Assembly (NCBI GenBank): GCA_017654855.1
Contig: CM030337.1
Coordinates: 3,348,001-3,412,000 of the forward strand
DNA from: Podospora anserina
Taxonomy: Eukaryota
Direction of reading: 5' to 3'
Length of the DNA stretch: 64,000 nucleotides
In this document: one piece after another, positions 11,648 through 38,300 of the stretch
How positions within the stretch are numbered: the first letter of the stretch is position 1
Layout: every line of letters begins with the position of its first letter
The notes under the pieces: generated by a model
Told to the model about the DNA's origin: nothing
Database searches by the model: none
The model's input: only the letters and a program-made list of their open reading frames with translations
Position numbers and translations under genes: made by a program

Positions 11648-11822
11648 AGGCAGAGTGATCAGTGTGATCAGGGCACTGAGCAGACTGAGCAGAGTGATCA
11701 GTGTGATCAAGGCACTGAGCAGACTGAGCAGAGGTGATCAGTGTGATCAGGGCACTGAGCAGACTGAGCAGAGGTGATCAGTGTGATCAGGGCACTGAGC
11801 AGACTGAGCCGAGGTGATCAGT
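11648..11822 (+). repeat. Tandem array of ~39-40 bp (4+ units, GAGCAGAG(G)TGATCAGTGTGATCAGGGCACTGAGCAGACT) in the LTR U3
   Basis: Directly visible near-perfect tandem units. Confidence 0.9.
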
Positions 11823-13020: not shown

Positions 13021-13382
13021 TGAAATGGTGAGAAAACACACAAAACAACCACAACACCACAAATATACCCTCAACAGGTCTCAGAATGAACACACCTGCG
13101 TGACAGTGACTCGCTCGCAGGCCGCACTTCACGTAGGACAAAGAAAAGACACTATGGGCTCGCAGGCCACATAATAAGCACCGGATTGGCCTGATCAGAG
13201 GGCCAGAATTGCCTGCACGCGTGCAAGGCACAAAATACGAAGCAAAGAATAAAAGTCGATGTCCTGTCTAAAATAGAATGTCCGAAGCAGACCGCTTATA
13301 TACATGACCCTGAACCCCTGAGTCCTCTGAGAGCCCCGCTTCCTTACTCATACTCTCAGGCCTGTGGCCGCACCCCAAACCA
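13021..13382 (-). repeat. 3' LTR (362 bp)
   Basis: Direct repeat of 24522-24884, 32348-32710 and 43855-44217. Confidence 0.97.
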
Positions 13383-13559
13383 AACCTCCCTTCGCATTTG
13401 ACCACTACAAACCAGTGGGCAAATGCGTACACAAGAAAAAAATCCCTTACAAACCAAAAAAAAAAAAAAAAGAAAATATCGTTCAGCAGAAAGAAGGGAA
13501 AACGATGTAATCCTGCTATCCCTTTATCCATTCTCCCTTGATCAGAGAGAAGAGCACCC

Positions 13560-15083
13560 TCACTTCTCGGATCTCAGAGCATACCTCCGTCCCTGTCGAG
13601 CCATCACAACTGGTGACCTAACGACCTCCTCCCTTCGTCTCTGAGGAACTCCAGGAGCCCACTCCCATCCCATGAAACCAGGTGTGTGATCAGGCGAAAG
13701 GTGTGTTGTTGGCGATCCTGAGTGGTCATAAGTAGGGGGACGGGCAATTACAGGCCCAGAGAGGAGCGGCGAGTCCATTGTCACAGGAGTGCGGAACCCA
13801 AAGGGGGTTGCTACCCTGCTTGGTCGTTGAGAGTTGCTCGACACGCTACTTGGTCCAAACCCTTCATGATCAGAGGGAAGACCCACGACGCACTCATCTC
13901 CCTCAACAGTAGTAACCAAAGCTAACGGAGAACCAGGGAGGGAAGCAAACCGGGGAATTGGTGGAGACTTGAAAGGAGACGAGAGGGTGCTTGGCAGGTT
14001 GAATCCTTCCGCGTCCATCAAGTCCTCCAGGCCCCTCCTCCTCCATTTCTTATCACGCACCCTCTGATCAGGCTCACAACCCAAAGACCTTTTCACATAA
14101 GCCATCCACAACCTCATCATCTTCTTCCCCGCAACGCCCACGGTCTTGCAGTCTCTGTAGCAACGATCTCCTCTCCAAGCCTTTACTACCGTTAAATCCT
14201 CCTCTTCACCGTACGAAACACCTCCCTGAAAGTAGGTACGGCAGTGCTCCAAGACCCAAAGACCACATTCCCACGCCCCGCCCTGTTCACCGCAAGCTGG
14301 CCTCCTCACTTTCACGTCAAGGCTGCAGTGGAAAGCGTGACGGATGTAAGATACCAGGCAAGAAATAGCATTAGCTTGATACCCCTTCCAATCCTTCGAC
14401 GAGTCCATATAAACCAAAATGCCAGTAGCAACGTCGTAGATGCCCACTGCCCAGTGGCTTCCGTTGTTGACATGAATGGGGAGGACCCAGTATCGTCGGT
14501 CAAAGGCGTTGTGGTTGTCGTTAGGCAGGAAAAAGCGCATCGACGACTTCATCATAACAGGGTTCAGAGGCTCTCCAGGGATCCATATACAACGCTCGAG
14601 GATTCCCTGAAGAGAGTACCGAAGAGCGCAGGTAAGGACCGAGCTAGTGAGCCACTGCTTGGCCTCTAGTTGACCTTGAAGGTCATACATAGCGCAAGTG
14701 AGGGAAGCTACATGGATACCGTAGATGTGAGTCCGATCAGGGGGGGTCGTTATTCTCAAGCCAGGAAAAAGATATTTGATAGTGTCAATCGAAAACTGCT
14801 CCACGAAAGTGGTGTTGATCCAGTCGGGCCGCCTTCCCACAACATGATCTCCTGGGTCGGCAACCAGGTTAAGGCCAAAACGAACAGGCCAGAGAGTGTC
14901 ATCGCCTTGGGGAAGGAAGATGCCGCGCGGGGGACCAGAGCCATAGACCCTGTCGATACCTTGAAGGCGCGCTTTCCGAATAATCTCTTTAACGAGATCA
15001 TTGGGAGGGCCGAATTTCTTGGTGGCGGTGAATTCTTCCCATGACATGTCGTGAATGGACTTTGTAAAAAGCGTTGATGACAT
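13560..15083 (-). CDS. Retrotransposon cargo: Ulp1/SENP-like (peptidase C48) cysteine protease with a Ser/Pro-rich tail
   Basis: WLTSSVL, YWVLPIHVNNGSHWAVGIYD (catalytic His), VYMDS (Asp), QGGAWECGLWVL (oxyanion Gln and catalytic Cys). Likely start MSSTLF at 15083, though the frame is open to 15248. Confidence 0.85.
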   Translation of the reverse strand: MSSTLFTKSIHDMSWEEFTATKKFGPPNDLVKEIIRKARLQGIDRVYGSGPPRGIFLPQGDDTLWPVRFGLNLVADPGDHVVGRRPDWINTTFVEQFSIDTIKYLFPGLRITTPPDRTHIYGIHVASLTCAMYDLQGQLEAKQWLTSSVLTCALRYSLQGILERCIWIPGEPLNPVMMKSSMRFFLPNDNHNAFDRRYWVLPIHVNNGSHWAVGIYDVATGILVYMDSSKDWKGYQANAISCLVSYIRHAFHCSLDVKVRRPACGEQGGAWECGLWVLEHCRTYFQGGVSYGEEEDLTVVKAWRGDRCYRDCKTVGVAGKKMMRLWMAYVKRSLGCEPDQRVRDKKWRRRGLEDLMDAEGFNLPSTLSSPFKSPPIPRFASLPGSPLALVTTVEGDECVVGLPSDHEGFGPSSVSSNSQRPSRVATPFGFRTPVTMDSPLLSGPVIARPPTYDHSGSPTTHLSPDHTPGFMGWEWAPGVPQRRREEVVRSPVVMARQGRRYALRSEK

Positions 15084-15423
15084 CGTTCTGTGAGAATTGA
15101 GAGGGAGTAGTGTGTGGTGTGATCTGTGATCAGAGGGTTGTCGAGAGGGAAGTGAGGAATTTTTTTGGAATGGAGAGTTAAAGAGGGAAGAAGGTCTTCG
15201 GTGAGTCTTTGTTCTCTGTTGTCTGCCTGGCTTGTAAGGCAAGATCATCAGATAGTTGCGTAAGCCGTTTGAGGAGGAAAGAGCGCTCTGATGAGTCTCC
15301 CTCCTGTAGAGGTCTGTAGGACCAGTCGCACCGTCCTATCCTCTGGTTATAAATACCCATGCCAGTTCTCCTCATTCCCGCTCACTCCTCATCTTTTCAG
15401 TACTTATTAACCGCTTCCTCCCA
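15084..15423. promoter_or_regulatory. Putative bidirectional promoter between the two cargo genes
   Basis: 340-bp gap between divergent ATGs. TTATAAATA at ~15347 followed by a pyrimidine-rich leader before ATG 15424. Confidence 0.45.
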
Positions 15424-16493
15424 ATGGCCTCTTCTTTGAGGAAACCTGCTGCTTCGTCCGATCAGGCGGTCGACGACCTTACTACCCAGGTATCCACGAC
15501 CTCTTTCGCCAAAAACTTCCCAGTCAGGTCGAGGGAGTCCTTGACCTTGCTGCGTACGACTGGTCCGAGGTCGCCATAGACCCTACTCAAGAGCCTTTGC
15601 TTGCTACCCTCACTCATCGTCCCACCGACCTCACCCGTGCTCCCAACAATCAAGGCGTTGCTTACAAGAGGCACGTCTGGGTTCGGCGTCCTACTTGCGT
15701 TCACGACTCCACCATGCCCAAAGGTGCTAATGCTTATCACGACATTTCTCTCCCCCATCAGGCTGCTCTTTGGTACCTCAAGATTTCCCCTCTAGATCCC
15801 AAACACGTGGCTGCTCCCCTCTACCTTGAGTGGTTCCTCCCTGATCCGACGAAGAAGGGGGGTAAGAAAGAGTGGCAGCTACTTTTCAAGGACATTGGTG
15901 CGGACAAGACTGTCACTGATTACATCTCCAAGGCGTTGTCGACCGGTTCCGTTAGGCGGATTTTCGTCGAACGGTCCAATGGGTGGTTCTTCGGGCGCTG
16001 GCTCTTCGAAATCGTCAAGCGGGCTCATCGCTCTAAAGGCTTATTTGTCCAGGCCACCGGGTTACTGTAAGTGCCGCCCCCCTGATCAGACTTAGCCTGA
16101 CACTAACATGTTGGATTCAGTCATGCCAATCCATGTGATGAGTGCGATCAGAGCTATCGCCGGTCTTTCGTGACGTTCCCCGATGGGACCAAAACTAAGG
16201 TGATGTGGCCATACTTCGGTTGTGTGGGAAGAGAGGACCTCGATTGGAAATGCGGGAACTGCTGGCATAAGGGTATCCATTGCTCATGGTCCAGTGTTGA
16301 TGAGGACAGCCCTTACTTCAAGGATCTTGGTAGTGGTGGGTTATCGAAGTTGGATCGTGGTGCCGTGAGCTTGATTCCTGGTGGTGAGGAAGTCGATTGG
16401 GACCAGGAGTGGGAAGAACAGCGGGCTGAGTACAAAGAGCTTAGGAAACAGCAGATGGATAAGAAGAAGGAGAAGAAGAAAGAAAAAGAATAG
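15424..16493 (+). CDS. Retrotransposon cargo (antisense): ~338-aa DUF3716-like Cys6 zinc-binding protein, exons 15424-16066 and 16121-16493
   Basis: Intron GTAAGT...CTAAC...CAG (54 nt) gives VQATGLLHANPCDEC...WPYFGCV...KCGNCWHKGIHCSW and a Lys-rich tail. One apparent frameshift (A5 at ~15511) reads A6 in the sister copy. Confidence 0.75.
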
Positions 16494-16729
16494 TCTTCCA
16501 CTTCCTCAGATCAGAGGAAGGGGCATAAAGAGAGGAGTGAATCGGAAAAAGAAATGACAGGAAAAGAAAAAGAAAAAATTAAAAATTCAATGCGATGATC
16601 TTCACCCCAATCAATCACCTCCCTTAGTGTCTTTCCTCCCTTTGAGAACAGACAGCTCCCACAGCTCTGTTCTCACAACACAAGCTTCAGTACCCTCTTA
16701 AAGAAAAAAAAACAACTACAACGCCTTCG

Positions 16730-19700
16730 TCATCGTCTCCCCTGATCACCCAAGAAGTCCTCTGGTCTACCCTTCTTCAGGACCACCTCTATACTTTTGC
16801 CCTTCTCAAATCTCTTCTGCACCTCAGCATTCTTCCGTTCCATCCAAGTCTTCCCCCTGGTCATCATTCTCCCTGGTGTTTCTTCCACTATCTCTTCTTC
16901 TTCATCCTCATCTTCCACCATATCCACGCCTTCCTTCACTCCATTCCCAGGCACCTGCTCAACTCTCCCTAGTCCTGGCTGCATGTCCGTATCCTCTTCA
17001 TCTACATACACGTCTTCCAACCTAAAAAACTTCTTTACCCTGTTTGGCGTGTAAGAAGCTCGCAATGGCACCCCATCCAGTGTCTCCAGGAAGTAGCAAG
17101 TGTTGCCTGGTTCGACCTTCCTCACTCTGAAAGGGCCGTCCCAGCGGTACTGTAGCTTCCTTACCACACTCATATCCAACTTTCTATCCATTTTATACAC
17201 CAACACCAAGTCCCCCCTTCTGATCATGCTATTCTCAGGCCTAATGCTGCGAATCCCTTTTCTGTTCTTTTCTTGCCGCGGCTTTCTGTCTTGCCATGCC
17301 AACCCTCTCAGCCACCAGAGTCAGATTCATCTCCTGGGATTTCAATAGTCTCGCCCTTGCCTCTATTAAATCCATAGTCGCTCTCTCCTTCCAGTGTCTC
17401 CCTGATCTGTCGAAGCCAATCTTTTCCCACTGGACGACTCTCCATGACGGTACGTCCTTTTCGATCGGCGTAATGGGGTTAAACCCATGTGCCAGATAGA
17501 AAGCACTGTACCCATGAATACCTCGTGTCGTGGTCCTATCAGCAAACAACACATAAGGGAGCCACTGCTTCCACTTCTTCCCCGTCCCATCCGTCATTTT
17601 TGCCAGCATCGATGCAATTGGGATGTGACCAGACTCCGTCACTCCATTTGCTCTTGCGTTGTAAGGTGAGACCACCACCCGAAGAACTCCTAGCCTCTCT
17701 AAAATCTCAGCAGCTTCCTTCCTAAATTCTGATCCGCCGTCCACCACCACGATCAGAGGGTGACCCCATCTGAGGATGATATCGTGCAGGATAAAGTTCT
17801 CAACCCCAGAAGCCTTGCCTGAGCTCAAGACCTTCGCTTCTGGATACCCAGTCAAGTCATCCCTCGCTTCCAGAAGGTAGGCTTTTTCTCCCGAAGCCGT
17901 TGGTAAGAACTGAACGTCTAAATGCCACTTCGCAAATGGGGTAGCTAAAGGCTCAGTATATAAGTGCCAGTCCTCCCAACGCTTCGGGCTCCATTGTTGA
18001 CATTGCCTACATGTCTTGATCCAAGCCTCGACGTCAGCGTACATACCCTTCCAGTAGTAGTTTTCTACTACTCGGGCATAGGTAGCTTCCGTCCTTTGTG
18101 GCCCATCTCGTTGTGACACGCATTGAAGACTCTTTCCCGCTCGATCAGAGGGTCAACAATTCTCCTGGGGGGAAAGCCTCCTTTGTTTGGCTTAAGAAAC
18201 AAAACTCCGTCTTCGAGAATCATTTTCAGGGCGTCATTCTTGATGGTCTGAACGTCAAACCTCGTCTTAGCCCTTGGCTCCGCACCAGTCGCGAGGAACT
18301 CGGCGATAGCATGGGAGTGAGGAGACCACAGTCCATTCAAGTAGGGGCCTTGCCCAATAACTTCCTTTTTCTTCTTCCTGATATTCACCCGCCAGACACT
18401 TACTTCCTGGATATCGTTCTTCCAGATCCTTGCGTCAACCTCATCATCAATGTCTGGCTCTAACTCCTTCTCCCTCAGATCAGAGGGGCCAGGTGGCTTT
18501 CTCGATAGTGCGTCTGCCACAAGGTTCTTACTCCCAGGGATGTGAACAATTGTGAAGTCGAAAAGTCTAATCCATCCCAGCCATCTCATCATCAAGGCGC
18601 CGGGAACGTCACTAGCCGCCCCCTGGACTTGGTGGACTACCACTTGAGCGTCCGTTTCCACCGTAAAGTGTACCCCGAAAAGATACCTTCTAAATCTCCT
18701 CAAAGTATACAACAGTCCTCTCAACTCCCTCTTGGTGGCATCATACCTCTGTTCAGCCGGGCTCCAAATACCACTCTCAAACCGACAAGGGTGCCGTTTT
18801 CCATCAGGTCCTACTTGTTCAATCACCGCTCCCCACCCCGTCAAGCTTGCATCAAAAATAACAAAGATTCTACCGAAACGGTCGTCATCAAACGTCAGAG
18901 AAGCCAGACACGGTGCCTCTGTGATCAGAAAGGCAAGCCACTCCATCGCACCCTGTTGAGCTTCCGTCCATTCCCATCTCGTGTCCTTCCTCATCAAGAA
19001 ATACAGCGGAACTGCGATCAGATTGAAGAGAGGTACCCATAGCCGATAGTAGCCGGTGATCCCCAGGAAGGCGCGAACATCCTTAAGACTGTGGCAAGTT
19101 CGCCATTCCCTTATCTTCACTATCTTTGTCTGATCAGGGAGGCGCCCGTCCGGTGTACAGGAATAGCCAAGGATAACAGCTTCCCGTCTGCACCAAAGGG
19201 ATTTCACGGCTGCAATTGTGGCTCCTGCAAGCTCACAGTTGAGCAAGACTGCGTCGATATTCTTCAAGTGCTCCAGGACCCACTTCCTAACTCCTGGCCT
19301 TTCTTCTTCACCATTGTAGTCCCACCTTGGCCCTTTCACTGCGATATCGTCCAGGTATGGCCGACACACCTGTGGGATGAGATCTTGAAAGACTCTGGTC
19401 ACGGCTCTTTGGAACTGGGCCACTGAGTTGGTAGCTCCTTGAGGTAGGGTACACATCCTGAATAGGCCGATAGGTGTCGCGAAGGTAGTGAGGTCTCGGC
19501 TCGTCAGGGCTAATTTGACTTGGTCGTATCCGGAGAAGAAGTCAAGCAAGGAGGTAATAAGGCACCCTGCAAAGTCCTCGCTGAACTCCTCAGTGCTTGG
19601 TGGGATAAAGGCATCTCGTTGCGTAACCTTATTGTATCTCTGGGCATCGTTGATCAGACGGAGGCCACCATCCTTTTTCTTTACTAGGAACCAGTTGTTG

Positions 19701-20668
19701 CGGTAGGGACCATGCGCTTCCTCAATAATATTTCTCTTGATTCGTTCCCTAAGGAGATCGATGACTTTCCCCACGAGTGGCTTCGGGATCGGAATAGACT
19801 TGCTTTGCCACGCTTTGTGAGGGATAGTCCTGATGTGTTGAGCAGGGAAGACTTCTTCAAGGATCTGTCCACACTCGGTGAAGTCCCATGCCAGTGCAGC
19901 CTCCCTTGCGAATAAGATTGCCGTAAACACTTTAACCTCCTGATCTGTCAAAATGTCGGTGGTTTGTCTGATCAGATCGGCTAAGCGTTCTGGAGTGAGG
20001 CGTGACCCTCTGATCATTTCAGAAAACTTAGGGACCACAATATCGTCGAATTCTGAGCCGTATTGTAGGGATTCCTTGACTGCCGCCCATCTCCTTACTT
20101 TCCAGTTCGGATCTCCTTCAGGAGTGCTACCATCTGACCCAGCATTATCAACCGGCTTCACCTTCTTATCTACCCTCTTGTACATCGTAGCAGTAGTAAC
20201 AATATCCGCAGGCGTTGGCCAGGCCTGTTCAAAAGTGGTGATCAGGCTGGTCTTCATGTTGTTTTTCTTCTCAGAAGGGGGCGGAGGTGGATGACGTCTA
20301 TGTGGTTGTGTAGTGAAGAGGCTGCGCTGACCTGGTTGAGTGAGGGACCAGTTAAATATCCCCAAGCATAAGGATGCCATATCGGGCTTAAATGGGGTTA
20401 TCCTGCTAGTCCTCTGATCAGACGGCGGCGATGTCTTTGGCAGTGGTGGCGACGGTACTAAATGCAGACCTGTTATGAAGGTCGGTGGTGGCGGTCGTTC
20501 TTTCCCTGAGATTTCGTCCGAAGTTAGAGTTCTTGTCGTAATTTCCACTCTTCCAGGCTGAAACAAAGACTTCTCTTTCTGGCAGTCCCTTATACCTCCC
20601 TTCTTTCCTTCCCTCTGATCACTAATATTCTTTCCTCCCTTGCTCCTAACATCCCCCTTTTCTTTGTT
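16730..20668 (-). CDS. pol: pol: reverse transcriptase, RNase H, integrase (two 1-bp frame breaks at ~18090 and ~17270)
   Basis: LDFFSGYDQ, LPQGATNS, YLDD; FDASLTGWGAV, ETDAQ, VADALSR; HHCC (CHNEMGH..CRQCQ), DDE (HLDVQ, VDGGSEF, TESGH), GPF motif. No chromodomain. True start unknown. Confidence 0.93.
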
Positions 20669-20863
20669 TTATAAGAAATAATATCAGACGCCAGGCAATA
20701 ATTTAATAACGGCAAACTTGACTCCCCAAAATAAAATTAAGCAAAGAACGCCCAGCTCCTTCATTCAGTCCCCAATCACTTCATCCCCTTCCTCCAGCTC
20801 CTCCGTTACCCACTCAGGGACAGGTACTCCTTCATTAACCAATCCCTTAAACACCTGTAAGGG

Positions 20864-23800
20864 TCAGCTGGCAGGAGAGGCATTACCTCGATCCCTGCCG
20901 TTATATTCCGCCTTCATCTTATCAATCACCTCCTTTTTTACCACGTGGGCCTTAATCAGCTTTCCCCCATACAACATATTCGCGCTAATCATACAGCCCT
21001 TCATAAAATCAAGGGTGAGGCTCGTATCCGTGAAGAACGGGATGCCCAATAGCAGGTCATGGAAACCCAGAGCCTCAGTGTTATCAATAACGAAGAAATG
21101 ACACAAAATTGGAACCCCAGCCAGCACTACTGGAGCCTGAGTCTCACCTATAAACGCAACCGGATCTCCATGAAGGCCTTTAGACTGTAGGTTCGTCGAC
21201 ACCATCGGTAGACAGAACCTCTCAGCTACAGCCCTACTGATCAGGTTGCACTCCGAGCCTGTGTCCAACATTGCCAGCACCTTCTCTGAAGTTGGTGAGA
21301 CGAAGTTACAATATAGCGATGGGACGTTGTGGGTTCGAGTGACGGCTCCCAGGAGAGTTCGCTCACTACCGGAAAGCCGGCCAATGGGCGTAGACAGCAG
21401 AGTCCGCAATCGCTCTTCTGGGCTGTCACCCGGTTGGACCTTGCCTTCGATGATCTTCTCCCAGATGCCTCCCTCGACCACACCATACTCACCATCCGCC
21501 GTGATCCCGTACAAAGCAGGGACAGTCTTCCTCTGATCAGACGGAGGAGTCTTGCTGTGTCCAGCCGTCTGAAAATTCGTCCGAACCGTTGACGGCAAGG
21601 CCTCCCCCTTCTGTGGGACTTCTCTCTTTCCATCCGGGGTACTCTTGGAAGATCCACGCCACTCGATCACCTCAGCATCCTCGGCCACACTCTTCACGTA
21701 ATCCATCAACCGGTAAGCAAATGTGGGTGAAACCCTACAATGCTCTTCCAGTGTGAACTTAGTCTGACCACAGGCGTACTTTTTGGCTTTCTCGGCAATG
21801 TAATCCCCAGAGTCCTCTGCCTCACCATCAGGCAACCTTGAGCCACTCCGACTCCATCCCCTGATCGGACGAGACTCCTCCTCAACTACCTTTGGCTTCT
21901 CTTGCGCGGGGGTGAGTACCACTTTCGGATTTTCGGCTGAGGCTGGGTCATCCATATCCTCTTTCGGCAGATCCTCGATCCTTACTCTCTTCGCTCCTTG
22001 CGCGCCTACCCCCACTTCCACCTCTTGGTTGCAGACGACCACTGGGGCATCATCAGAGCGCTTCAGAATGCTCCTAGGCGACCACTTCTCTGCTGAGCAG
22101 CGTTGCAAGGCATTCCTAGTAATGTAGTCACTGGCTGAGTTCTCGTTAAACGGTACGTAGGGTTTGGAGTACCCATGAAGCCTGTTTAACCTGACATCCA
22201 TAGCCCTGGCCATCTGAGTAGCTGTCTGCTCCCTCCCTCTGATCAGAGAGACCTCGGGCCTGTATCCCTTGCCCTCACGAGCTTCCCAGTGCTCAGCCCA
22301 TTTCGTGTAAGCTTCATAGGCCCTATTCAGTTCTGGTTTCAACGAAATTGCAGCACGAACCAGGTCGCCAACCTTCCCTTCACGCTGCGCCTTCCTCACA
22401 TCCTCTTGATCAAGCCACGCTTTTTCACTCTCCGGCCACTCCTTCTTACCGATACACACTCTGCCTCCTTCAGTATGGCACAGTCCCCACGCCTCATCAT
22501 ACTCCTTCTTCGGACACTCCGTCGACTTAGCGTAATGGCCAGTCTTGCCGCACCAGAAGCACCTTCTTGGTGGGGGAGGGCTATCGCGGTACTGCCCCCC
22601 TGATCTTCCGAACTGGGTTTTAGTATCAACAATGGGGAAGGTATTGAAAGACGAATCCATTTCCCCATTAGGGCCAATGCCAAAATCCAGGAGTAAGGTG
22701 CCTGGTCTTCTAGGTGTTGAACGCGGGTCCTCATTATCCCAGATTTGCCGTTTCCCGGTGCAGAGAAACCACCGTAGATATTCGCCCTCAAATGCTGCAG
22801 TGCCATCTCTCTGTCTACCATAGCGTTAACCGCCATGTACTGGTCGAGCACCTCGGCCGCCTGATCAGAGGCAGCAGGGGAGGGTGCAATGGTTGATTTG
22901 TCCTCCTTGTAGATTCTTCCTCCCACGTCATACCCATCTTCGATCACATCATTAATCCAATCGCTCCAGGTAATAAAATTCATGGATCTTAAACGACGTT
23001 CGGATCCTCCTCGGTTGATAAGGGTCATCCTCATTGACTCGGAGAATTTCATCCAAAAGCGGCTGGCAACCCTGGCTCTTACTGCCTCTTTCTCCCCGGT
23101 CGGCACTCGAGAGAGCAGTTTGGAGTGGTCAAAACAACCTTCCTTAACTCGCCCACACCTTCAGGGATAACCTTGGCGTAGAAGTCATCCAACTCCCTGT
23201 GGATATCTTCGTCTTGTCGGGGGTCATAGATCTTAAAGAGGCGTTTAAGGCGGACAACCAGGACAGGCCAAGTATCGGTGGGTGTAGGTAGGTCTACACA
23301 TTCGTCAATCTGTTTTCCCACATCGAAGTCACACCAGGATTTGAACTTGCGAACGCGAGAGGTAAATTCCACGACATGGTACTCTTCACAGGCATTCTCG
23401 AAACGCTCCAGATATTCCGTAAAGTGCTTCCCTTTGAAGTTGCTCTTAAAACCGACTTTCTTCGGATCAGGGAATTCACGCTGAGGAAAATACATAGGCA
23501 CCATGGGATAGGGGGTTGGATGATCAGACGTAGGGGACCCCTGGAAGTGGCGATAGTCGGGGTAAGCTCCTATGGGATATGGGTATCCGGGTTGCTGGAA
23601 TTGATGCGCGAACCCAGGAAGAGGAGCGGGATATCCGGCATGCCGAGTGGGAGGCGCAGTATGATTCCAAGCAGCAGGATTTGGGTGGGTACGAGGTCCA
23701 CCTGGCACGTCAGGAGCGTTGGGCCTTGCAGTCGGGCCACCTTGATCAGAAAGGGGCGAGGGGTCTCAGCATCTTCAGGGTGAGCGCGGTTCGCAGCCGG

Positions 23801-23941
23801 GGAGAGGACGAATGGTGATGATTCCGGGGACCTGGCCGCCGGAATGGCCACTTCTACCACGGAACGAGCCGTAGGAGCTTGATACCCCTGGTTGTCGCCG
23901 GGAAGGCTAGCCGAAGCGATGGGTGGGACATTGTCGGACAT
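20864..23941 (-). CDS. gag: gag-protease polyprotein, ~1026 aa after correcting three 1-bp deletions (~23755, ~23132, ~22691)
   Basis: Four overlapping ORFs joined by +1 corrections that the sister copy supports. FKGKHFTEYLERFE capsid-like start, zinc knuckle CFWCGKTGHYAKSTEC, aspartic protease LDTGSECNLIS. Confidence 0.88.
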
Positions 23942-24502
23942 GTCGATACTCGATGATTGCTGTTGCGTTTGCGTTGGTGGTATGGCTTTTTCCTTGTGTA
24001 TGTTGTTGGAAATATGAAGACGGTTGTCCCTTGCAACTCCAGTATGTGGGCATGAGTTACATCTACCCAGATCAGAGGGAAAGTGTCCTCGTCTCCTTGC
24101 TTTTGGGTTCCCGATGTCCTGAGTCAAACTGACCCGGAAATCCCCACGATTGTCCACCATCGCTAAACAACACACCAGGAGGATTCCTCCTAACCAAAGA
24201 TAGGAGAGGACTTTGATAGTTGACGCGGAGATAAGGTCCACTAACGAGCTAGTCTCAACCAATGCTCTTAGTTCACTTCCCGGTCCCATCCGGACCACAC
24301 ACTTGACTCTCCACTCGCGGGCAGAAAGTTTAGAGTTTGGTCGATGATGAAAGAGCTTTATCCGATCAGACGGAGAAGAATCGTTTCCGTTGAACCTCGC
24401 GGGGTTCAGTGAAGTTGTCGGTGCTTGTTGTCGTTCGTGGCTTCGCACTTCCTCCAGTACCCAGGGCTTGTGAGTCCAGTTTGGACCCTGAGCTTTGCTC
24501 AA

Positions 24503-24519
24503 CCCGGGCACGACCTCCA
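24503..24519 (-). promoter_or_regulatory. Primer-binding site TGGAGGTCGTGCCCGGG, probably tRNA-Gln
   Basis: Starts with TGG 2 nt inside the 5' LTR boundary. The complement ...CCCGGGCACGACCT-CCA resembles fungal tRNA-Gln 3' ends (from recall, not searched). Conserved in the sister copy. Confidence 0.7.
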
Positions 24520-24521
24520 TT

Positions 24522-24884
24522 TGAAATGGTGAGAAAACACACAAAACAACCACAACACCACAAATATACCCTCAACAGGTCTCAGAATGAACACACCTGC
24601 GTGACAGTGACTCGCTCGCAGGCCGCACTTCACGTAGGACAAAGAAAAGACACTATGGGCTCGCAGGCCACATAATAAGCACCGGATTGGCCTGATCAGA
24701 GGGCCAGAATTGCCTGCACGCGTGCAAGGCACAAAATACGAAGCAAAGAATAAAAGTCGATGTCCTGTCTAAAATAGAATGTCCGAAGCAGACCGCTTAT
24801 ATACATGACCCCTGAACCCCTGAGTCCTCTGAGAGCCCCGCTTCCTTACTCATACTCTCAGGCCTGTGGCCGCACCCCAAACCA
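24522..24884 (-). repeat. 5' LTR (363 bp) with TATATAAG box at ~24797-24804 (minus)
   Basis: Direct repeat of 13021-13382, adjacent to the PBS. Confidence 0.97.
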
Positions 24885-27800
24885 CTATAAAGTATTTAAA
24901 TAACTCGAATAAAAAAAGGAAATTATAATAATTATTATATTAAAAGAATTAAAAGTTATAAAGGTTATAATTATTAAATATTAATAAAGTAAAGTAAAAA
25001 ATTATTATTAAATATATATATAAAAAAATATTAAGTATATAAAAGACGGAAAATAAGAGGAAGTTAAACGAATATAATTAAAAAATTTTATATTATTAGA
25101 TAATCCGGAGTAGGAGGATATTTTTAAACGATATAATTATTTAAAAAACGATTTACGGCTTTTCGCGGGAATTAATAACCTTTAATAAATTATAAATAGT
25201 ATTATTAAAAATATTAATATAAAACGAAGGTATAGAATAATAACCCGGTATTTATTAATAAAGTTATTATTATATAGGGAGGAAATAAGAGAGATAAATA
25301 TTTTTAAATTATAGTATATTAAAAAAATATTTAAGTAGTAATATTAATAAATAAAGGTATAAAAACGAATTTAATTTCGTTATAATTTATATATTAAGTT
25401 AGGATATTATAGAAAAAAAAAAGAATAGATCGTTATATAAAGATTATTTCCGATATAAAAAACTTATAAAAAAATATTATTTTTAAATATTATAATCGAA
25501 AGAAAAATAATTTTAATTATATTTAATATTATAAATATAGGACCTTTAAAAAATATAATCCTAAAATAATTATAATATAAAGATTATAATTTAAATATTA
25601 ATTAAAAAGATAGTAATTATTTACGATTAAAAGAATTTTAAAAGTATTTAATTAACGATAGGAGATTAGACGTACGTATAAAGTAAGGTATAGGATAAGT
25701 ACCCTCTACGGTATTACCGTAAGGAACTTAAAAAGTAATAATATACTTTATTAATATAAATAGTAAAATCGAAAAAGTAGGGTTAATAACATTAATAAAA
25801 ATATCGAAGGTTAATAAATATATTTATTATAATAACGTAAAGAAGAGCGAGAAAAAAGTAATATTAATAAAAGATCGAAAATATTTAACTTTTACGGTTA
25901 AATATTTAAAAGGATTTTTAAAGCGAGGACCGTACGATTATAAAATTAAATTAAAAAAAAATTAAATTACGGTTATTTAAGGTTTATTATATTAATAATA
26001 AGTAAAGTAAAGAATTACGGAAATATTTAAATAAAAATTTAAAAAAAAAATATATTAAGGAGTTTATATTATTAATAAAATATCCTATATTTTTTATATT
26101 AAAAAAGGATAGTAATTTACGATTATATATAAATTATTATTAATTAAATAACGAAATGGTAAAAAATAATTATTTATTATTATTAATATTTAAATTATAA
26201 AGTTAATTAGTAGAGGCGCGATACTTTATATATTTAAATATATTTATCGGGTATATTTATATACGGATTAAGGAAAAAAATAAATAAAAAATAATATTTT
26301 ATATATTTTATAATTATTTCGAATATTTTATAATACTATTCGGATTAATTAATACGCCCGTAATATTTTAATTTTTTATTAATTATATAATCCGGAAATA
26401 CTTTAATAAAATAATAATATATTATTTTAATAATATTTTTATTTATTTATATACGTTAGAGAAATATAAATAATACGTACGAAAGATATTTAACGTATTA
26501 TATAGAGCCGGATTTTTAATTAATAAAAAAAAATAAGTTTTATATATAAAAAATAATATATTTAAAATATTTAATATCGTTAAGTAAGGTTTATATAGAA
26601 TTTAAGAAAATTATAATAATTAAGGACTAGCCTATACTATAATTATAAATATATATTAAAGAATTTTTAAAATTTATAAATTTCTATCGGATATTTATTT
26701 AAAGGTATATAAGTATTACGCGGTTATTTAATTATTTAATTAAGAAAGATATAGAGTTCCGGTGGGGGTAGAAAAAAAAATAAGTTTTTTAGAAGTTAAA
26801 AAAGGTTATTTTAAAGGATTTAATATTTAAATTATTAAATTTTAATTAATTATTTAAAATCGAAATAAATATATTAAACTATATAATCGGTAAATAATTA
26901 AAGTAACGAAACGACGACGGTAAGCTATACCCGGTAACCTTTTTTTAAAGAAACTCGAAAGGGTATATTAAAATTATTTAATTTATAATAAAAAATTATT
27001 CGTTATTATCGAAGCGTTCGAGGAATAAAAATTATATTTTAATAATATTAAATATAAAGTATAGGTTTATATAGATTATAAAAGTTTACGGTACTTTATT
27101 ATTACAAAAGTCTTTAACGTATAATAAATATAATAATTAAAATTTCTTTCGGAATTTAATTTTTAAATTAATTATAAAAAAAGTTCGGAAAATACTAGAG
27201 TAAACGTATTTAGCCGGTAAACCGATTACTATAAAGATATATTTAGGGAATTACTATTATTATTTAAAGAGGCGTTAAATAGTATTTTTAAATATTTATT
27301 ATAGCCGTAAATAAAGTATTATATAATATATTATAAAAAAGTTATTTTTAATAAATATTAAAGGAAGTTAAATAATAATATTATAGAATAATATTAATAG
27401 GAAAAACTAAAGTTATAAGGTATTTAAAAAGATAATTAGGGAAGATTATAGTATAGGAATTAAATATATATAATACTAAATAATAGGACGGTATTAATAA
27501 TAGAGATTTATAGATCGAAATTCGGAGGATATATAAATATTGTAAAGATTATAAAAGAAATTAAATAATACTTTAATTAATTAAGGATTAAAAACGATAT
27601 TAAGGAAGTTATTTAATTATACTATACGTACGAGAAAATAAAGGTTATAAAATATAAATTTTATAGATTTTTAAAGTTATTATTAATAATAAAATAATTA
27701 TAAAGTTTAATTATAATAAACTTTATTATTAAATGATTAAAGTTTAAAAATATAATAACCGGCGTTAAATATAATAGTATATTAATAGTAATCGATAAAT

Positions 27801-28002
27801 TTATTAAATAAATATATTTTTTATTTTATAAAAAAATTTAAGTAGTAAAGTAATTAATAAATATAATATTATAATATATTGAATTAATATATATATAATT
27901 AAAAAAGTTTATTACGGACCGTAATACTAAATTCGTATCAAAGTTTAAAGAGTATTAATAACGAGGCTAAAAGTAGTAAGTAAAATATTTTCGGTTTATT
28001 AC

Positions 28003-32347: not shown

Positions 32348-35300
32348 TGAAATGGTGAGAAAACACACAAAACAACCACAACACCACAAATATACCCTCA
32401 ACAGGTCTCAGAATAAACACACCTGCGTGACAGTGACTCGCTCGCAGGCCGCACTTCACGTAGGACAAAGAAAAGACACTATGGGCTCGCAGGCCACATA
32501 ATAAGTACCGGATTGGCCTGATTAGAGGGCCAGAATTGCCTGCACGCGTATAAGGCACAAAATACGAAGAAAAGAATAAAAGTCGATGTCCTGTCTAAAA
32601 TAGAACGTCCGAAGCAGACCGCTTATATACATGACCCCTAAACCCCTAAGTCCTCTGAGAGCCCCGCTTCCTTACTTATACTCTTAGGCCTATAGCCGCA
32701 CCCCAAACCAAACCTCCCTTTACATTTAACTACTATAAACCAGTAAGCAAATACGTATATAAGAAAAAAATCCTTTATAAATTAAAAAAAAAAAAAAATA
32801 TTATTTAATAGAAAGAAAGGAAAATAATATAATTCTATTATCCCTTTATTTATTTTCCTTTAATTAAAGAAAAAAGTATCCTTACTTTTCGGATTTTAAA
32901 GTATATTTCTATCCTTATCGAATTATTATAATTAATAATTTAATAACTTTTTCCCTTTATCTTTAAGGAACTTTAGGAGCCCACTTTTATCTTATAAAAC
33001 TAAGTATATAATTAAGCGAAAAGTATATTATTAACGATCCTAAATAGTTATAAGTAAGGGAATGAATAATTATAAATTTAAAGAAAAGTAACAAGTTTAT
33101 TATTATAGGAGTACGGAATTTAAAAAGGGTTATTACTTTATTTAATTATTAAAAGTTATTCGATACGCTATTTAGTTTAAACCCTTTATAATTAAAGGGA
33201 AGACCTACGATATATTTATTTCTTTTAATAATAATAATTAAAGTTAACGGAAAATTAAAGAGAAAAGTAAATTAGGGAATTAATAGAAATTTAAAAAGAA
33301 ACGAAAGGATATTTAATAAGTTAAATCCTTCCGCGTCTATTAAGTTTTTTAGGCCCCTCCTCCTCTATTTCTTATTACATACCCTTTAATTAAATTTATA
33401 ATTTAAAAACCTTTTTATATAAATTATTTATAATTTTATTATTTTTTTCCCCGTAACGCTTATAATTTTATAATCTCTATAATAATAATCTCCTCTTTAA
33501 ACCTTTATTACCGTTAAATCTTTTTCTTTACCGTATAAAATATTTCCCTAAAAATAAATATAATAATATTTTAAAACCTAAAAACTATATTCCTACGCTC
33601 CGCCCTATTTACCGTAAATTAATTTCCTTACTTTTACGTTAAAACTATAGTGGAAAGCGTAATAGATATAAAATATTAAATAAGAAATAATATTAATTTA
33701 ATACCCCTTTTAATCCTTTAACGAGTTTATATAAATTAAAATATTAATAATAATATTATAAATATTTATTATTTAATAACTTCCGTTATTAATATAAATA
33801 AAAAAAATTTAATATTATCGGTTAAAAACGTTATAATTATTATTAAATAAAAAAAAGTATATCGACGATTTTATTATAATAAAGTTTAAAGGCTTTCTAA
33901 AGATCTATATATAATATTCGAGGATTCCTTAAAAAAAATATTGAAAAACGTAAGTAAAGACCGAACTAATAAACTATTATTTAGCTTTTAATTAACTTTA
34001 AAAATTATATATAATATAAATAAGGGAAGCTATATAAATACTATAAATATAAATCCGATTAAAGGAAGTTATTATTTTTAAATTAAAAAAAAAATATTTA
34101 ATAATATTAATCGAAAATTATTTTATAAAAGTAATATTAATTTAATCGGGCCGCCTTTTTATAATATAATCTCTTAAATCGGTAATTAAATTAAAATTAA
34201 AATAAATAAATTAAAAAATATTATTACTTTAAAAAAGGAAAATACCGCGCGAGGGACTAAAACTATAAACCTTATCGATACTTTAAAAGCGTGTTTTCCG
34301 AATAATTTCTTTAACGAAATTATTAAGAGGGCCGAATTTCTTAATAGTAATAAATTTTTCCTATAATATATTATAAATAAACTTTATAAAAAGTATTAAT
34401 AATATTATTTTATAAAAATTAAAAGAGAGTAATATATAATATAATTTATAATTAAAAGGTTATTAAAAAAAAAATAAAGATTTTTTTTTAAAATAAAGAA
34501 TTAAAAAAGGAAAAAAGTTTTTAATAAATTTTTATTTTTTATTATTTACTTAATTTATAAAGTAAAATTATTAAATAGTTACGTAAGCCGTTTAAAAAGG
34601 AAAAAACGTTTTAATAAATCTCCCTTCTATAGAGGTCTATAAAACTAATTATACCGTCCTATCCTTTAATTATAAATACTTATATTAATTCTCTTTATTT
34701 CTACTTACTCTTTATTTTTTTTAATATTTATTAATTATTTCCTTTTAATAATTTTTTTTTTAAAAAAATTTATTACTTCGTTCGATTAAACGGTTAATAA
34801 CTTTATTATTTAAATATTTATAACTTCTTTCGTTAAAAAACTTTTTAATTAAGTTAAAGGAATCCTTAACCTTATTATATATAATTAGTCCGAAATTACT
34901 ATAGACCTTACTTAAAAGCCTTTACTTATTACTTTTACTTATCGTTTTACCGACCTTACCCGTACTTTTAATAATTAAAATATTATTTATAAAAAATATA
35001 TTTAAGTTTAGCGTCCTATTTATATTTATAACTCTACTATACCTAAAAGTATTAATATTTATTATAATATTTTTTTCTTTTATTAAATTACTCTTTAATA
35101 CTTTAAAATTTCCCCTTTAAATCCTAAATACGTAACTACTCCCCTCTACTTTAAGTAATTCTTTCCTAATTTAACGAAAAAGGGAAGTAAAAAAGAATAA
35201 TAATTATTTTTTAAAAATATTAATACGAATAAAACTATTATTAATTATATCTTTAAAGCGTTATTAATTAGTTCCGTTAAACGGATTTTCGTTAAACGGT

Positions 35301-38300
35301 TTAATAAATAATTTTTTAAATATTAATTTTTCGAAATTATTAAATAGGTTTATTGCTTTAAAAATTTATTTATCTAAACTACCGGGTTACTATAAATATC
35401 GCCCCCTTAATTAAATTTAATTTAATATTAATATATTAAATTTAATTATATTAATCTATATAATAAATATAATTAAAACTATTACCGGTCTTTTATAATA
35501 TTCCCCGATAAAATTAAAATTAAAGTAATATAATTATACTTTAATTATATAGGAAAAAAGGACCTCGATTAGAAATATAGGAATTATTAATATAAAAATA
35601 TTTATTATTTATAATTTAATATTAATAAAAATAGTTTTTACTTTAAAGATTTTAATAATAATAAATTATTAAAGTTAAATTATAATACCGTAAATTTAAT
35701 TCCTAATAGTAAAAAAGTCGATTAAGATTAGGAGTAAAAAAAATAGCGGGCTAAGTATAAAGAACTTAAAAAATAATAAATAAATAAAAAAAAAAAAAAA
35801 AAAAAAAGAAAAAAAATAGTTTTCTATTTCCTTAAATTAAAGGAAGGAATATAAAAAAAGAAGTAAATTAAAAAAAAAAATAATAAAAAAAAAAAAAAAA
35901 AAATTAAAAATTTAATATAATAATTTTTACTTTAATTAATTACTTCCTTTAATATTTTTTTTCTTTTTAAAAATAAATAGTTTTTACAGTTTTATTTTTA
36001 TAATATAAACTTTAATACCCTTTTAAAAAAAAATAATAATTATAATACTTTTATTATTGTCTCCCTTTAATTATTTAAAAAGTCTTTTAATTTACCTTTC
36101 TTTAAAACTACTTTTATACTTTTACCCTTCTTAAATCTCTTTTATATTTTAATATTTTTCCGTTCTATTTAAATCTTCCCCCTAATTATTATTTTCCCTA
36201 ATATTTCTTCCACTATTTCTTCTTCTTTATCCTTATTTTTTACTATATTTATACCTTCCTTTACTTTATTCCTAAATACTTACTTAACTCTCCTTAATCC
36301 TAACTATATATCCGTATCCTTTTTATTTATATATACGTTTTTTAATTTAAAAAACTTTTTTACTTTATTTAATATATAAAAAACTTATAATAGTACCCTA
36401 TTTAATATCTTTAAAAAATAATAAATATTATTTAGTTCGACCTTCTTTACTTTAAAAGGGCTATCCTAACGGTACTATACTTTCCTTACTATATTTATAT
36501 TTAACTTTTTATTTATTTTATATACTAATATTAAATCCCCCTTTCTAATTATACTATTTTTAAACCTAATATTATAAATCCCTTTTCTATTCTTTCTTAC
36601 CGCGGCTTTCTATTTTACTATACTAACCCTTTTAGCTATTAAAATTAGATTTATCTCCTAGGATTTTAATAGTCTCGCCCTTACCTTTATTAAATCTATA
36701 ATCGCTCTCTCCTTTTAGTATCTCCTTAATCTATTAAAATTAATCTTTTTTTATTAAATAATTTTCTATAATAGTACGTCTTTTTCGATCGGCATAATAA
36801 GGTTAAACTTATATATTAAATAAAAAGTATTATACTTATAAATACCTTATATTATAATTTTATTAATAAATAATATATAAAGGAGTTATTATTTCTATTT
36901 TTTCTCCGTTTTATTTATTATTTTTATTAATATTAATATAATTAAAATATAATTAAACTCTATTACTCTATTTACTTTTATATTATAAAATAAAATTATT
37001 ACCCGAAAAACTCCTAGTTTCTTTAAAATCTTAGTAATTTCCTTTTTAAATTTTAATCCGCTATTTACTATTACGATTAAAGGGTAATTTTATTTAAAAA
37101 TAATATTATATAAAATAAAGTTTTTAACTTTAAAAGCTTTATTTAAGTTTAAAACCTTTACTTTTAAATATTTAATTAAATTATTCTTTGCTTTTAAAAA
37201 ATAAATTTTTTTTCCCGAAATTATTAGTAAAAATTAAACGTTTAAATATTATTTTGTAAATAAAGTAGTTAAAGGTTTAATATATAAATATTAGTTTTCC
37301 TAACGCTTTGGGCTTTATTATTAATATTATTTATATATTTTAATTTAAATTTCGATATTAATATATATACTTTTTTAATAATAATTTTTTATTATTCGGG
37401 TATAAGTAGTTTCCTGTCCTTTATAGCCTATCTCGTTATAATACGTATTAAAGATTTTTTCCCGTTTAATTAGAAAGTTAATAATTTTTTTAAGGGGAAA
37501 ACTTTTTTTATTTAATTTAAAAAATAAAATTTTATTTTTAAAAATTATTTTTAGGGTATCGTTTTTAATAGTTTAAACGTTAAACCTTGTTTTAGCCTTT
37601 AACTCTATACTAATCGTAAGGAACTCGGCGATAGTATAGGAGTAAGGAGACTATAGTTTATTTAAGTAAGGGCTTTACTTAATAATTTCCTTTTTTTTTT
37701 TTTTAATATTTACCTATTAAATATTTATTTTTTAAATATTATTTTTTTAGATCTTTACATTAACTTTATTATTAATATCTAGCTTTAACTCCTTTTCCCT
37801 TAAATTAAAAAGGCTAAATAGTTTTCTCGATAATATATTTATTATAAAGTTTTTACTTTTAAAAATATAAATAATTATAAAATTAAAAAATTTAATTTAT
37901 TTTAATTATTTTATTATTAAAGCGCCGGGAATATTATTAATTATTTTTTAGATTTAATAGATTATTACTTAAACGTCCGTTTCTACCGTAAAATATATCC
38001 CGAAAAAATACTTTTTAAATCTCTTTAAAGTATATAATAATCCTTTTAACTCCCTCTTAATAATATTATACTTTTATTTAACCGGGCTCTAAATACTACT
38101 TTTAAACTAATAAGGGTACCGTTTTCTATTAGGTCCTACTTATTTAATTACCGCTCCCTACCTTATTAAATTTATATTAAAAATAATAAAGATTTTACCG
38201 AAACGGTTATTATTAAACATTAAAGAAACTAAATACAGTACCTCTATAATTAAAAAAGTAAATTACTTTATTATATTTTATTAAACTTCCGTTTATTCCT

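What the first reader, a model, noticed from the sequence alone, without database searches (positions are those of the whole stretch)
13560..15083. Catalytically complete Ulp1/C48 protease in the env-like position of an LTR retrotransposon
His-Asp-Cys triad and oxyanion Gln motifs are all present (SHW, MDS, QxxxxECG). The ORF is intronless and in the sense of the genomic RNA, directly upstream of the PPT. The element already has its own aspartic protease, so this enzyme probably acts on host SUMO/NEDD8/ubiquitin conjugates (inference).
Basis: partly seen in the sequence, partly recalled or inferred. Interest (0 to 1): 0.75.

Follow-up and report, generated by a model that had tools for sequence, protein, structure and literature searches.

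The report
Retrotransposon carrying a Ulp1-like protease gene
A young fungal LTR retrotransposon carries, after its usual genes, an intact gene for a SUMO-protease-like enzyme and a second, oppositely oriented gene with its own intron, a cargo combination I could not find described for this kind of mobile element.

Summary
The ORF 15083->13563 (stop 13560-13562), on the minus strand, encodes 507 aa with His210, Asp227, Gln267 and Cys273 in Ulp1 order. Pfam alone is below threshold (17.8 vs 20.7 bits). A profile built with 26 homologues hits yeast Ulp1 at 8.9e-13. An AlphaFold model (pLDDT 85.8) matches Ulp1, SENP, Ulp2 and NEDP1 structures best.

The ORF lies inside an 11,864-bp Ty3/gypsy-type element (13021-24884, minus strand). 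The element has near-identical 362/363-bp LTRs, a 4-bp target duplication, a PBS, a PPT and PR-RT-RH-IN order. A second, fully colinear copy ruined by RIP (32348-44217) has a different target duplication. The protease gene therefore moved with the element at least twice.

- Between pol and the protease gene lies an antisense gene (15424-16493, plus strand) with a canonical 54-nt intron. It diverges from the protease ORF around a shared TATA-like box.
- Gag-pol of the young copy is split over several frames. The breaks sit at homopolymer length differences and are probably assembly errors.

The substrate (host SUMO or another ubiquitin-like conjugate) is plausible but untested. Verdict: real, a new variant of a known kind. 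Ulp1 domains are known in MULE, Ginger1 and NeSL/Utopia elements.

The parts
13021..24884 (-). Copy 1 of the LTR retrotransposon (11,864 bp), not affected by RIP, GC 0.51
   Evidence: LTR pair; boundaries read; full-length colinear alignment to copy 2; GC
24522..24884 (-). 5' LTR, 363 bp, TG...CA
   Evidence: 99.7% identical to the 3' LTR over 364 columns, the only difference a 1-nt C/G-run length
13021..13382 (-). 3' LTR, 362 bp, TG...CA
24885..24888 (-). Target-site duplication ATAG (other copy at 13017-13020)
   Evidence: read directly
24501..24519 (-). Primer-binding site starting TGG, 2 nt after the 5' LTR
   Evidence: exact second occurrence at 43834-43852 in copy 2, 0 expected by chance
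13385..13395 (-). Polypurine tract, 2 nt before the 3' LTR
   Evidence: read directly
16730..23941 (-). gag-pol. ATG at 23941, CCHC knuckle 22496-22564, aspartic protease (DTGS) 21035-21283, RT 19163-19684, RNase H 18575-18970, integrase zinc domain 17985-18092, integrase core and SH3-like tail to 16730. Split over six frame segments in this assembly.
   Evidence: ORFs; Pfam; ATG; frame breaks coincide with 1-nt homopolymer gaps versus copy 2
15424..16493 (+). Antisense accessory gene. Exon 1 is 15424-16066, intron 16067-16120 (GTAAGT...CTAAC...CAG, 54 nt), exon 2 is 16121-16493 (stop TAG). About 338 aa, no known family.
   Evidence: sequence read; ORFs; independent 215-aa protein P0034, 99% identical, starting at this ATG; no Pfam family
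15350..15357 (.). TATAAATA / TATTTATA box between the two divergent accessory ORFs; candidate internal bidirectional promoter
   Evidence: read; function inferred only
13560..15083 (-). Ulp1-like (C48) protease ORF, 507 aa plus stop
   Evidence: a public gene model of 562 aa starts at the upstream ATG 15248
14049..14861 (-). C48 catalytic domain (residues ~75-345). Codons: Trp144 14652-14654, His210 14454-14456, Asp227 14403-14405, Gln267 14283-14285, Cys273 14265-14267.
   Evidence: homologue match ranges; profile alignment to Ulp1; model and fold search; column counts
13563..14048 (-). C-terminal tail (162 aa) rich in Pro, Ser, Arg and Gly. Basic cluster KKWRRR at residues 345-350; two SIM-like hydrophobic patterns at 387 and 399.
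   Evidence: only patterns, no test of function
32348..44217 (-). Copy 2 of the same element, heavily RIP-mutated (GC 0.21), TSD ATGT. Its protease region 32885-34405 carries 33 stops.

Best explanation
A Ty3/gypsy-type LTR retrotransposon of a filamentous fungus carries a two-gene accessory cassette between pol and its 3' LTR: a sense-strand, intronless gene for a divergent but catalytically complete Ulp1/SENP-like (C48, clan CE) cysteine protease, and an antisense gene with its own intron.

Shown:
- The fold and the catalytic residues.
- The cassette is an integral part of the unit that transposes.

Inferred:
- The protease mRNA starts at an internal promoter in the 340-bp gap shared with the antisense gene, or is a spliced subgenomic RNA, and ends in the 3' LTR.
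- The protein is a soluble, probably nuclear isopeptidase. It removes SUMO (less likely NEDD8 or ubiquitin) from host or element proteins.
- This helps the element's transcription, nuclear steps or escape from SUMO-dependent repression.
- Polyprotein processing is left to the element's own aspartic protease.
For: Fold and chemistry:
- The 27-sequence profile hits yeast Ulp1 at 8.9e-13, Ulp2 at 1.7e-10 and SENP8 at 1.4e-8, with His, Asp-Ser, Gln and Cys-Gly aligned.
- The AF2 model built with the alignment has pLDDT 85.8 and pTM 0.88.
- Foldseek against PDB gave 62 hits at E<=0.001. The top ones are Ulp1 (7.3e-7, TM 0.58 by target), SENP5, Ulp2, SENP2/1, NopD and NEDP1.
- His 27/27, Gln 25/27 and Cys 24/27 are conserved. 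A Trp in a WL motif (17/27) and the Trp after His (27/27) are kept.

Part of the element:
- It lies between IN and the 3' LTR on the element's strand.
- The two copies align end to end over 11,881 columns. Each has its own 4-bp TSD, ATAG versus ATGT.
- 3592 of 3607 substitutions between the copies are C>T or G>A.
- There is no indel between the copies within 13563-15083.

Not a fresh host copy:
- Only 32 representatives reach E<=0.001, and the best is 32% identical.
- GC3 is 0.59, like pol (0.54-0.57), while 3 of 4 neighbouring host genes have 0.66-0.77.

Expression:
- The divergent arrangement with a TATA-like box.
- The ORF starts about 8.8 kb into the genomic RNA, behind a closed pol.

Plausibility of a SUMO link: in yeast, loss of nuclear-pore tethering of Ulp1 de-represses Ty1 transcription and boosts retrotransposition (abstract of PMC8585004). 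Ulp1 domains recur in Ginger1, MULE and NeSL/Utopia elements (passages of PMC2836005 and PMC4640811).
Against: - There is no activity, expression or substrate data.
- The protein's own Pfam score is below the gathering cut-off, and the single-sequence fold failed (pLDDT 33).
- Foldseek TM-scores are moderate (0.42-0.46 by query).
- Processing proteases of the same clan (poxvirus I7, ASFV S273R) and ubiquitin- or NEDD8-active enzymes also match. The fold does not fix the substrate.
- Only two copies were seen, one of them dead, so selection on the ORF cannot be measured.
- Gag-pol of the live-looking copy is frame-broken as assembled. If those breaks are real, the copy is not autonomous.
- The genomic context of the 31 homologues is unknown, so I cannot say whether the family is generally transposon-borne.
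Confidence: 0.55

Rival explanations
1. Passenger gene. The element picked up a divergent host gene pair (protease plus neighbour with their shared promoter). It carries them without benefit, and the ORF is intact only because the insertion is young.
For: The cassette looks like a compact fungal divergent gene pair with its own TATA-like box and an intron in the antisense member. Only two copies are seen in the window. Homologues appear as stand-alone proteins of 260-1396 aa, with no RT or integrase domain in the Pfam rows shown. Extra Ulp1 genes on fungal accessory chromosomes are reported as ordinary genes (passages of PMC10779208 and PMC8146201).
Against: The closest representative is only 32% identical. 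Third-position GC matches the element rather than most neighbouring host genes. Both point to long residence or an origin outside housekeeping genes. All 507 codons and all catalytic residues are intact. The cassette survived at least two rounds of reverse transcription.
Confidence: 0.28
2. Processing protease. Like adenain, poxvirus I7 or ASFV S273R, the enzyme cleaves the element's own proteins (for instance the unusually long Gag) rather than ubiquitin-like modifiers.
For: Same clan. Poxvirus I7L and ASFV S273R appear among the fold matches (PDB rank 21, 5.9e-5; BFVD ranks 5, 6 and 20). Gag-pol is long, about 7.2 kb.
Against: The element has its own aspartic protease with DTGS. Cellular SUMO proteases match better than the viral processing enzymes. 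Gly-Gly dipeptides in gag-pol are not enriched: 15 observed versus 14.4 expected. This is a weak test.
Confidence: 0.1
3. Not really part of the retrotransposon: a chance ORF, or a separate element nested in this one copy.
For: The Pfam hit alone is sub-threshold.
Against: Profile, fold and homologue evidence. Copy 2 carries the same region colinearly and has a different TSD. No terminal inverted repeats bracket the cassette: the best pairs are 15-32 nt at 72-94% complementarity and do not sit at its borders.
Confidence: 0.02

Closest known systems
Cellular SUMO proteases Ulp1/SENP and Ulp2 (MEROPS C48, clan CE); NEDP1/SENP8
   Same: Same predicted fold and the same order of His, Asp, Gln and Cys. 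The sequence block around His-Trp, Asp-Ser and Gln...Cys-Gly aligns with yeast Ulp1.
   Different: Very divergent: sub-threshold on Pfam, and only 32 representatives within phmmer reach. It is carried by a retrotransposon and has its own N-terminal part and a Pro/Ser-rich tail. Substrate unknown.
Ulp1 domains of other transposons: KI-MULE/Mutator and Ginger1 DNA transposons, NeSL and Utopia non-LTR retrotransposons
   Same: A mobile element encoding a C48 protease in addition to its transposition enzymes (passages of PMC2836005, and PMC4640811).
   Different: In Ginger1 and NeSL/Utopia the domain is part of the transposase or RT protein. Here it is a separate ORF in an LTR retrotransposon, paired with an antisense gene. 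Relatedness to those domains was not tested, because no sequences of them were at hand.
LTR retrotransposons with additional ORFs, e.g. Boty-like elements of Botrytis with the antisense gene brtn; plant and rotifer elements with extra ORFs
   Same: Extra gene(s) between pol and the 3' LTR, including antisense ones. The brtn reference title was seen in PMC8365987. The others were seen only as titles and abstracts in the search listing (PMC7264820, PMC5408684).
   Different: None of those seen carries a C48 protease. PMC7264820 contains none of the words Ulp1, protease, SUMO or C48. Homology of the antisense gene to brtn was not tested.
Clan CE proteases of viruses and bacterial effectors (adenain-like, poxvirus I7, ASFV S273R, XopD, ChlaDub)
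   Same: Parasites' own CE-clan enzymes that either process their proteins or strip host ubiquitin-like marks. They appear among the fold matches.
   Different: They match more weakly than Ulp1/SENP. This is an intracellular retroelement, not a virus or a secreted effector.

Membership tests
Peptidase C48 (Ulp1/SENP), clan CE | Pfam PF02902 match at or above the gathering score | tested here: not met
   17.8 bits versus cut-off 20.7, E 0.0031. Of 31 homologues, 19 show the family at E<=0.01 and 15 reach the cut-off.
Peptidase C48 (Ulp1/SENP), clan CE | Catalytic His, Asp and Cys plus oxyanion Gln, in that order, alignable to Ulp1 | tested here: met
   His210, Asp227, Gln267 and Cys273; the family profile aligns these blocks to 1euv at E 8.9e-13.
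Peptidase C48 (Ulp1/SENP), clan CE | Clan CE protease fold | tested here: met
   AF2 with alignment: pLDDT 85.8, pTM 0.88. Foldseek top hits are Ulp1, SENP5, Ulp2 and NEDP1, probability 1.00, E down to 7.3e-7, TM 0.46 by query and 0.58 by target. This is a prediction, not a solved structure.
Peptidase C48 (Ulp1/SENP), clan CE | Cleaves after the Gly-Gly end of SUMO or another ubiquitin-like protein | not testable with these tools
   Needs an enzyme assay.
Ty3/gypsy (Metaviridae) LTR retrotransposon | Direct LTRs with TG...CA ends, target-site duplication, PBS and PPT | tested here: met
   4-bp TSDs ATAG (copy 1) and ATGT (copy 2).
Ty3/gypsy (Metaviridae) LTR retrotransposon | Domain order PR-RT-RNase H-IN | tested here: met
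   Pfam positions on the minus-strand ORFs: Asp protease (weak, with DTGS), RVT_1, RT_RNaseH, Integrase_H2C2. No chromodomain was found.
Ty3/gypsy (Metaviridae) LTR retrotransposon | Uninterrupted gag-pol (autonomy) | tested here: inconclusive
   Six frame segments in copy 1. Every break coincides with a 1-nt homopolymer gap versus copy 2. At one such site, 15510, an independent protein record shows the longer run.
env-carrying retroelements (errantiviruses, retroviruses) | Third ORF encodes a membrane fusion glycoprotein (signal peptide, transmembrane anchor) | tested here: not met
   The ORF folds as a C48 protease. No hydrophobic segment: maximum 19-aa Kyte-Doolittle mean 0.96.
Transposon-borne Ulp1 (Ginger1, NeSL/Utopia type) | Protease domain fused to the transposase or RT protein | tested here: not met
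   Pol ends at 16730, or a few codons later. The protease ORF opens 1.4 kb downstream, with an antisense gene between. A search for longer, fused relatives found none, which is weak evidence.

The most novel reading that the evidence does not exclude
The protease and its antisense neighbour form a self-contained, internally promoted counter-defence module. The element makes its own untethered deSUMOylase to erase SUMO marks that the host needs to repress LTR elements. This mimics the Ty1 de-repression seen in yeast when Ulp1 leaves the nuclear pore. The antisense intron-bearing gene acts as regulator or partner. If so, SUMO erasure would be a strategy reached independently by MULE, Ginger1, NeSL and now LTR retroelements.
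Probability: 0.2. Interest if true: 0.8.

Novelty: new variant of a known kind. Interest (0 to 1): 0.6.

Why it matters
Ulp1-type proteases have been recruited repeatedly by DNA transposons and non-LTR retrotransposons, yet their role in transposition remains unknown. Here is an intact one in a very young LTR retrotransposon of a fungus, separate from pol and apparently with its own promoter. That makes a clean system for asking what such enzymes do for a mobile element.

- The protease can be mutated without touching Gag-Pol.
- Yeast work already links Ulp1 localisation to Ty1 transcription (abstract of PMC8585004).
- Some 'extra Ulp1 genes' annotated on fungal accessory or mini-chromosomes may be transposon cargo. 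This is only a lead (passages) and was not tested.

Tried and rejected
- Single-sequence AlphaFold of the 507-aa protein gave pLDDT 33 and was unusable. It was replaced by the alignment-based model.
- The word-index protein search found only the window's own protein. The search for longer, fused forms found nothing (weak evidence).
Names, sources and copy numbers of the homologues therefore stayed unknown.
- The Atlas search for the antisense gene gave only weak leads: TPR-like at 0.91 with few shared features for exon 1, and fungal hypothetical proteins or DUF3716 at 0.80-0.83 for exon 2. Pfam at E<=10 gave nothing credible.
- No tRNA gene in the window matches the PBS.
- No terminal inverted repeats lie around the cassette, so I rejected a nested DNA transposon.
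- A tandem segmental duplication as the origin of copy 2 was rejected. The only other shared flank (28005-28651 versus 47712-48341) is at a different offset, and the TSDs differ.
- The test for Gly-Gly enrichment in gag-pol showed none.
- Literature: 10 searches found no paper describing a Ulp1/C48 gene in an LTR retrotransposon. Subscription journals and Repbase reports are not covered. I did not open supplements; Figure S1 of PMC3248453, on 'complex transposons' with additional domains, could bear on this.
No search of eukaryotic genomes for related loci was therefore possible.
Full report
**1. The observation**

The coordinates are correct, but the gene is on the minus strand. The plus-strand reading of 13560-15083 is full of stops. 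The minus strand is open from 15335 to 13563, and a Met at 15083 starts a 507-aa protein, P0001. A public gene model of 562 aa starts at an upstream ATG (15248) in the same frame.

**2. Is it a C48 protease?**

Pfam alone does not settle this: Peptidase_C48 scores E 0.0031 and 17.8 bits, below the 20.7-bit gathering score. Further evidence does.

- *Homologues.* An exhaustive phmmer search of 1.84 billion representatives found 32 proteins at E<=0.001, 12 at <=1e-10, with the best foreign hit 32% identical.
- *Family membership of the homologues.* Of the 31 foreign ones, 19 show a Peptidase_C48 row at E<=0.01 and 15 reach the gathering score. For P0005 only 5 of 7 rows were shown, all ankyrin.
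- *Profile search.* A profile of the query region (residues 60-350) plus 26 of these homologues (A1) hits yeast Ulp1 (1euv) at 8.9e-13, Ulp2 at 1.7e-10 and SENP8/NEDP1 at 1.4e-8. The printed alignment puts the His-Trp, Asp-Ser, Gln and Cys-Gly blocks on those of Ulp1.
- *Conservation.* In A1, His is 27/27; the following Trp 27/27; Gln 25/27; Cys 24/27 (3 Ser); Asp 17/27 with 9 Asn and 1 Cys; and a Trp in a WL motif N-terminal of the core 17/27. From memory of the Ulp1-Smt3 structure, not from any call, two tryptophans clamp the Gly-Gly tail. The two conserved Trp here may correspond to them.
- *Fold.* The single-sequence AlphaFold model failed (pLDDT 33). With A1 the model reached pLDDT 85.8 and pTM 0.88.
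- *Fold search, PDB.* Foldseek gave 62 matches at E<=0.001, led by Ulp1 (2hkp, 7.3e-7; TM 0.46 by query, 0.58 by target), SENP5, Ulp2, SENP2/1, NopD and NEDP1.
- *Fold search, viral models.* Giant-virus Ulp1-like proteases lead, with poxvirus core protease and ASFV S273R lower down.

The fold and catalytic equipment are supported. The substrate is not determined.

**3. The element**

The ORF lies in an LTR retrotransposon on the minus strand, 13021-24884 (11,864 bp).

- The LTRs are 363 and 362 bp, begin TG and end CA, and differ only by the length of one C/G run.
- A 4-bp duplication, ATAG, flanks the element.
- A PBS beginning TGG lies 2 nt after the 5' LTR (24519-24501). A purine tract (13395-13385) lies 2 nt before the 3' LTR.
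- The minus-strand ORFs carry a CCHC knuckle, an aspartic protease (weak Pfam hits, but a DTGS motif), RVT_1, RNase H and the integrase zinc domain, in gypsy order. No chromodomain was found.
- Pol ends at 16730. The protease stop codon is about 164 nt upstream of the purine tract.

**4. A second copy shows the protease gene is cargo that transposes**

Region 32348-44217 aligns with copy 1 end to end: 11,881 columns at 69.4% identity.

- Of 3607 substitutions, 3592 are C>T or G>A in the direction copy 1 to copy 2. GC falls from 0.51 to 0.21. This is the signature of fungal repeat-induced point mutation (RIP).
- Copy 2 has its own 4-bp duplication, ATGT, so it is an independent integration.
- Its protease region is colinear, without indels, but carries 33 stops.
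- The only other repeat shared near both copies lies at a different offset, which argues against a segmental duplication.

**5.

Between pol and the protease ORF the plus strand carries a second gene.

- It has a TATAAATA box at 15350-15357, an ATG at 15424, and an open frame to 16066.
- A 54-nt intron follows, with GTAAGT, CTAAC and CAG (16067-16120). The same frame then continues to a TAG at 16491-16493.
- In the window, the frame of the first 29 codons is offset by one base at an A-run near 15510. Copy 2 has one more A there.
- An independent database protein, P0034 (215 aa, 99% identical, 7 member sequences), starts with exactly this Met and reads straight through that site, ending at the stop inside the unspliced intron.
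- An intron in the antisense direction survives passage through the element's RNA, so it is compatible with retrotransposition.
- The gene has no Pfam family and only weak Atlas leads.
- The protease ORF and this gene diverge from a 340-bp gap. The TATA-like box there reads similarly on both strands.

**6. State of gag-pol**

In copy 1, gag-pol (ATG 23941 to 16730) is split into six frame segments.

- Each frame switch (near 23752, 23130, 22690, 18090 and 17268) and the stop-laden stretch 20666-20864 coincides with 1-nt gaps between the copies.
- These gaps fall in homopolymer runs, mostly shorter in copy 1.
- My arithmetic shows that copy 2 keeps one frame from gag to about 20267 and one frame from there to the end of pol.
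- Non-RIP substitutions are only 15, against 21 indels. The LTRs have no substitution but one run-length difference.
- With P0034 as well, this pattern fits consensus errors of the assembly better than real decay, but I cannot prove it.
- Within the protease ORF there are no indels between the copies.

**7. Mechanism**

*Shown:* an intact C48-fold ORF with a full catalytic set, carried by the transposing unit.

*Inferred:*
- It cannot be translated from the 11.9-kb genomic RNA by scanning. It therefore needs its own mRNA, from the internal TATA-like promoter or by splicing, ending in the 3' LTR.
- The protein is soluble: there is no hydrophobic segment (maximum hydropathy 0.96). It has a basic cluster at 345-350 and a Pro/Ser-rich tail with two SIM-like patterns. 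These are patterns only.
- The most likely activity is removal of SUMO, or less likely NEDD8 or ubiquitin, from host or element proteins.
- The benefit would be de-repression or help with nuclear steps. In yeast, releasing Ulp1 from the nuclear pore raises Ty1 transcription and retrotransposition (abstract of PMC8585004).

*Rivals:*
- A functionless passenger gene pair. Against it: 32% identity to the nearest representative, and GC3 like pol rather than like 3 of 4 host genes.
- A processing protease. Against it: the element's own aspartic protease, better matches to cellular enzymes, and no Gly-Gly enrichment, 15 observed versus 14.4 expected.

**8. Comparison and novelty**

- Ulp1 domains are documented in Ginger1 and Mutator DNA transposons (passages of PMC2836005) and in NeSL/Utopia non-LTR retrotransposons (passages of PMC4640811).
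- Extra and antisense ORFs are documented in LTR elements. The Boty antisense gene brtn is cited in PMC8365987. The plant review PMC7264820 contains none of the words Ulp1, protease, SUMO or C48.
- Ten full-text searches found no LTR retrotransposon with a C48 gene. Repbase reports, subscription journals and supplements were not covered.
- I therefore rate it a new variant of a known kind.

**9. Limits**

The host species, the copy number elsewhere and the genomic context of the homologues are therefore unknown.
- Neighbouring genes indicate a filamentous fungus: PEX11, lipoxygenase, a short-chain dehydrogenase, and a GH18 chitinase with LysM and chitin-binding modules.

Noticed in passing
window 15424-16493 (+): Antisense accessory gene inside the retrotransposon, with a canonical 54-nt fungal intron (16067-16120) and a Cys-rich C-terminal exon. 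No known family. An independent 215-aa database protein (P0034) matches exon 1.
   Followed up: partly
window 13307, 15158, 15391, 15510, 16741, 18090, 20666, 20726, 20771, 21878, 22690, 23130, 23752: 1-nt length differences between the two copies, in homopolymer runs, shorter in copy 1. Several break gag-pol frames. At 15510 an outside protein record supports the longer run. Probably assembly errors in the window sequence.
   Followed up: partly
window 32348-44217 (-): RIP-ruined second copy. The internal region is 69% identical to copy 1, but its LTRs are 92-96% identical and its PBS is unmutated, so RIP spared the short terminal repeats relatively.
   Followed up: partly
window 24885-32347 and 34000-44000: Very AT-rich blocks (GC 0.16-0.30). 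The young copy 1 sits in AT-rich sequence on both sides, so this looks like a transposon graveyard that is still being hit.
   Followed up: no
window 28005-28651 and 47712-48341: Another repeat family, 90% identical over about 649 nt, not part of the element.
   Followed up: no
window 9716-9918, 11231-11424, 11852-12050, 30595-30798: A repeat of about 190-200 nt in direct and inverted orientation (82-88% identity), and beside it a 40-nt tandem repeat at 11655-11841. Possibly ends of another mobile element.
   Followed up: no
window 44166-44858 (+): ORF with a Pol polyprotein beta-barrel domain (Pfam Pol_BBD, 9.2e-7), a remnant of another retroelement abutting copy 2.
   Followed up: no
window 58968-61903 (-): Host gene pieces encoding LysM, chitin-binding and GH18 modules (a large fungal chitinase). 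Also lipoxygenase at 52870-54711 (-), a short-chain dehydrogenase at 56452-57312 (+) and PEX11 at 935-1795 (+).
   Followed up: no
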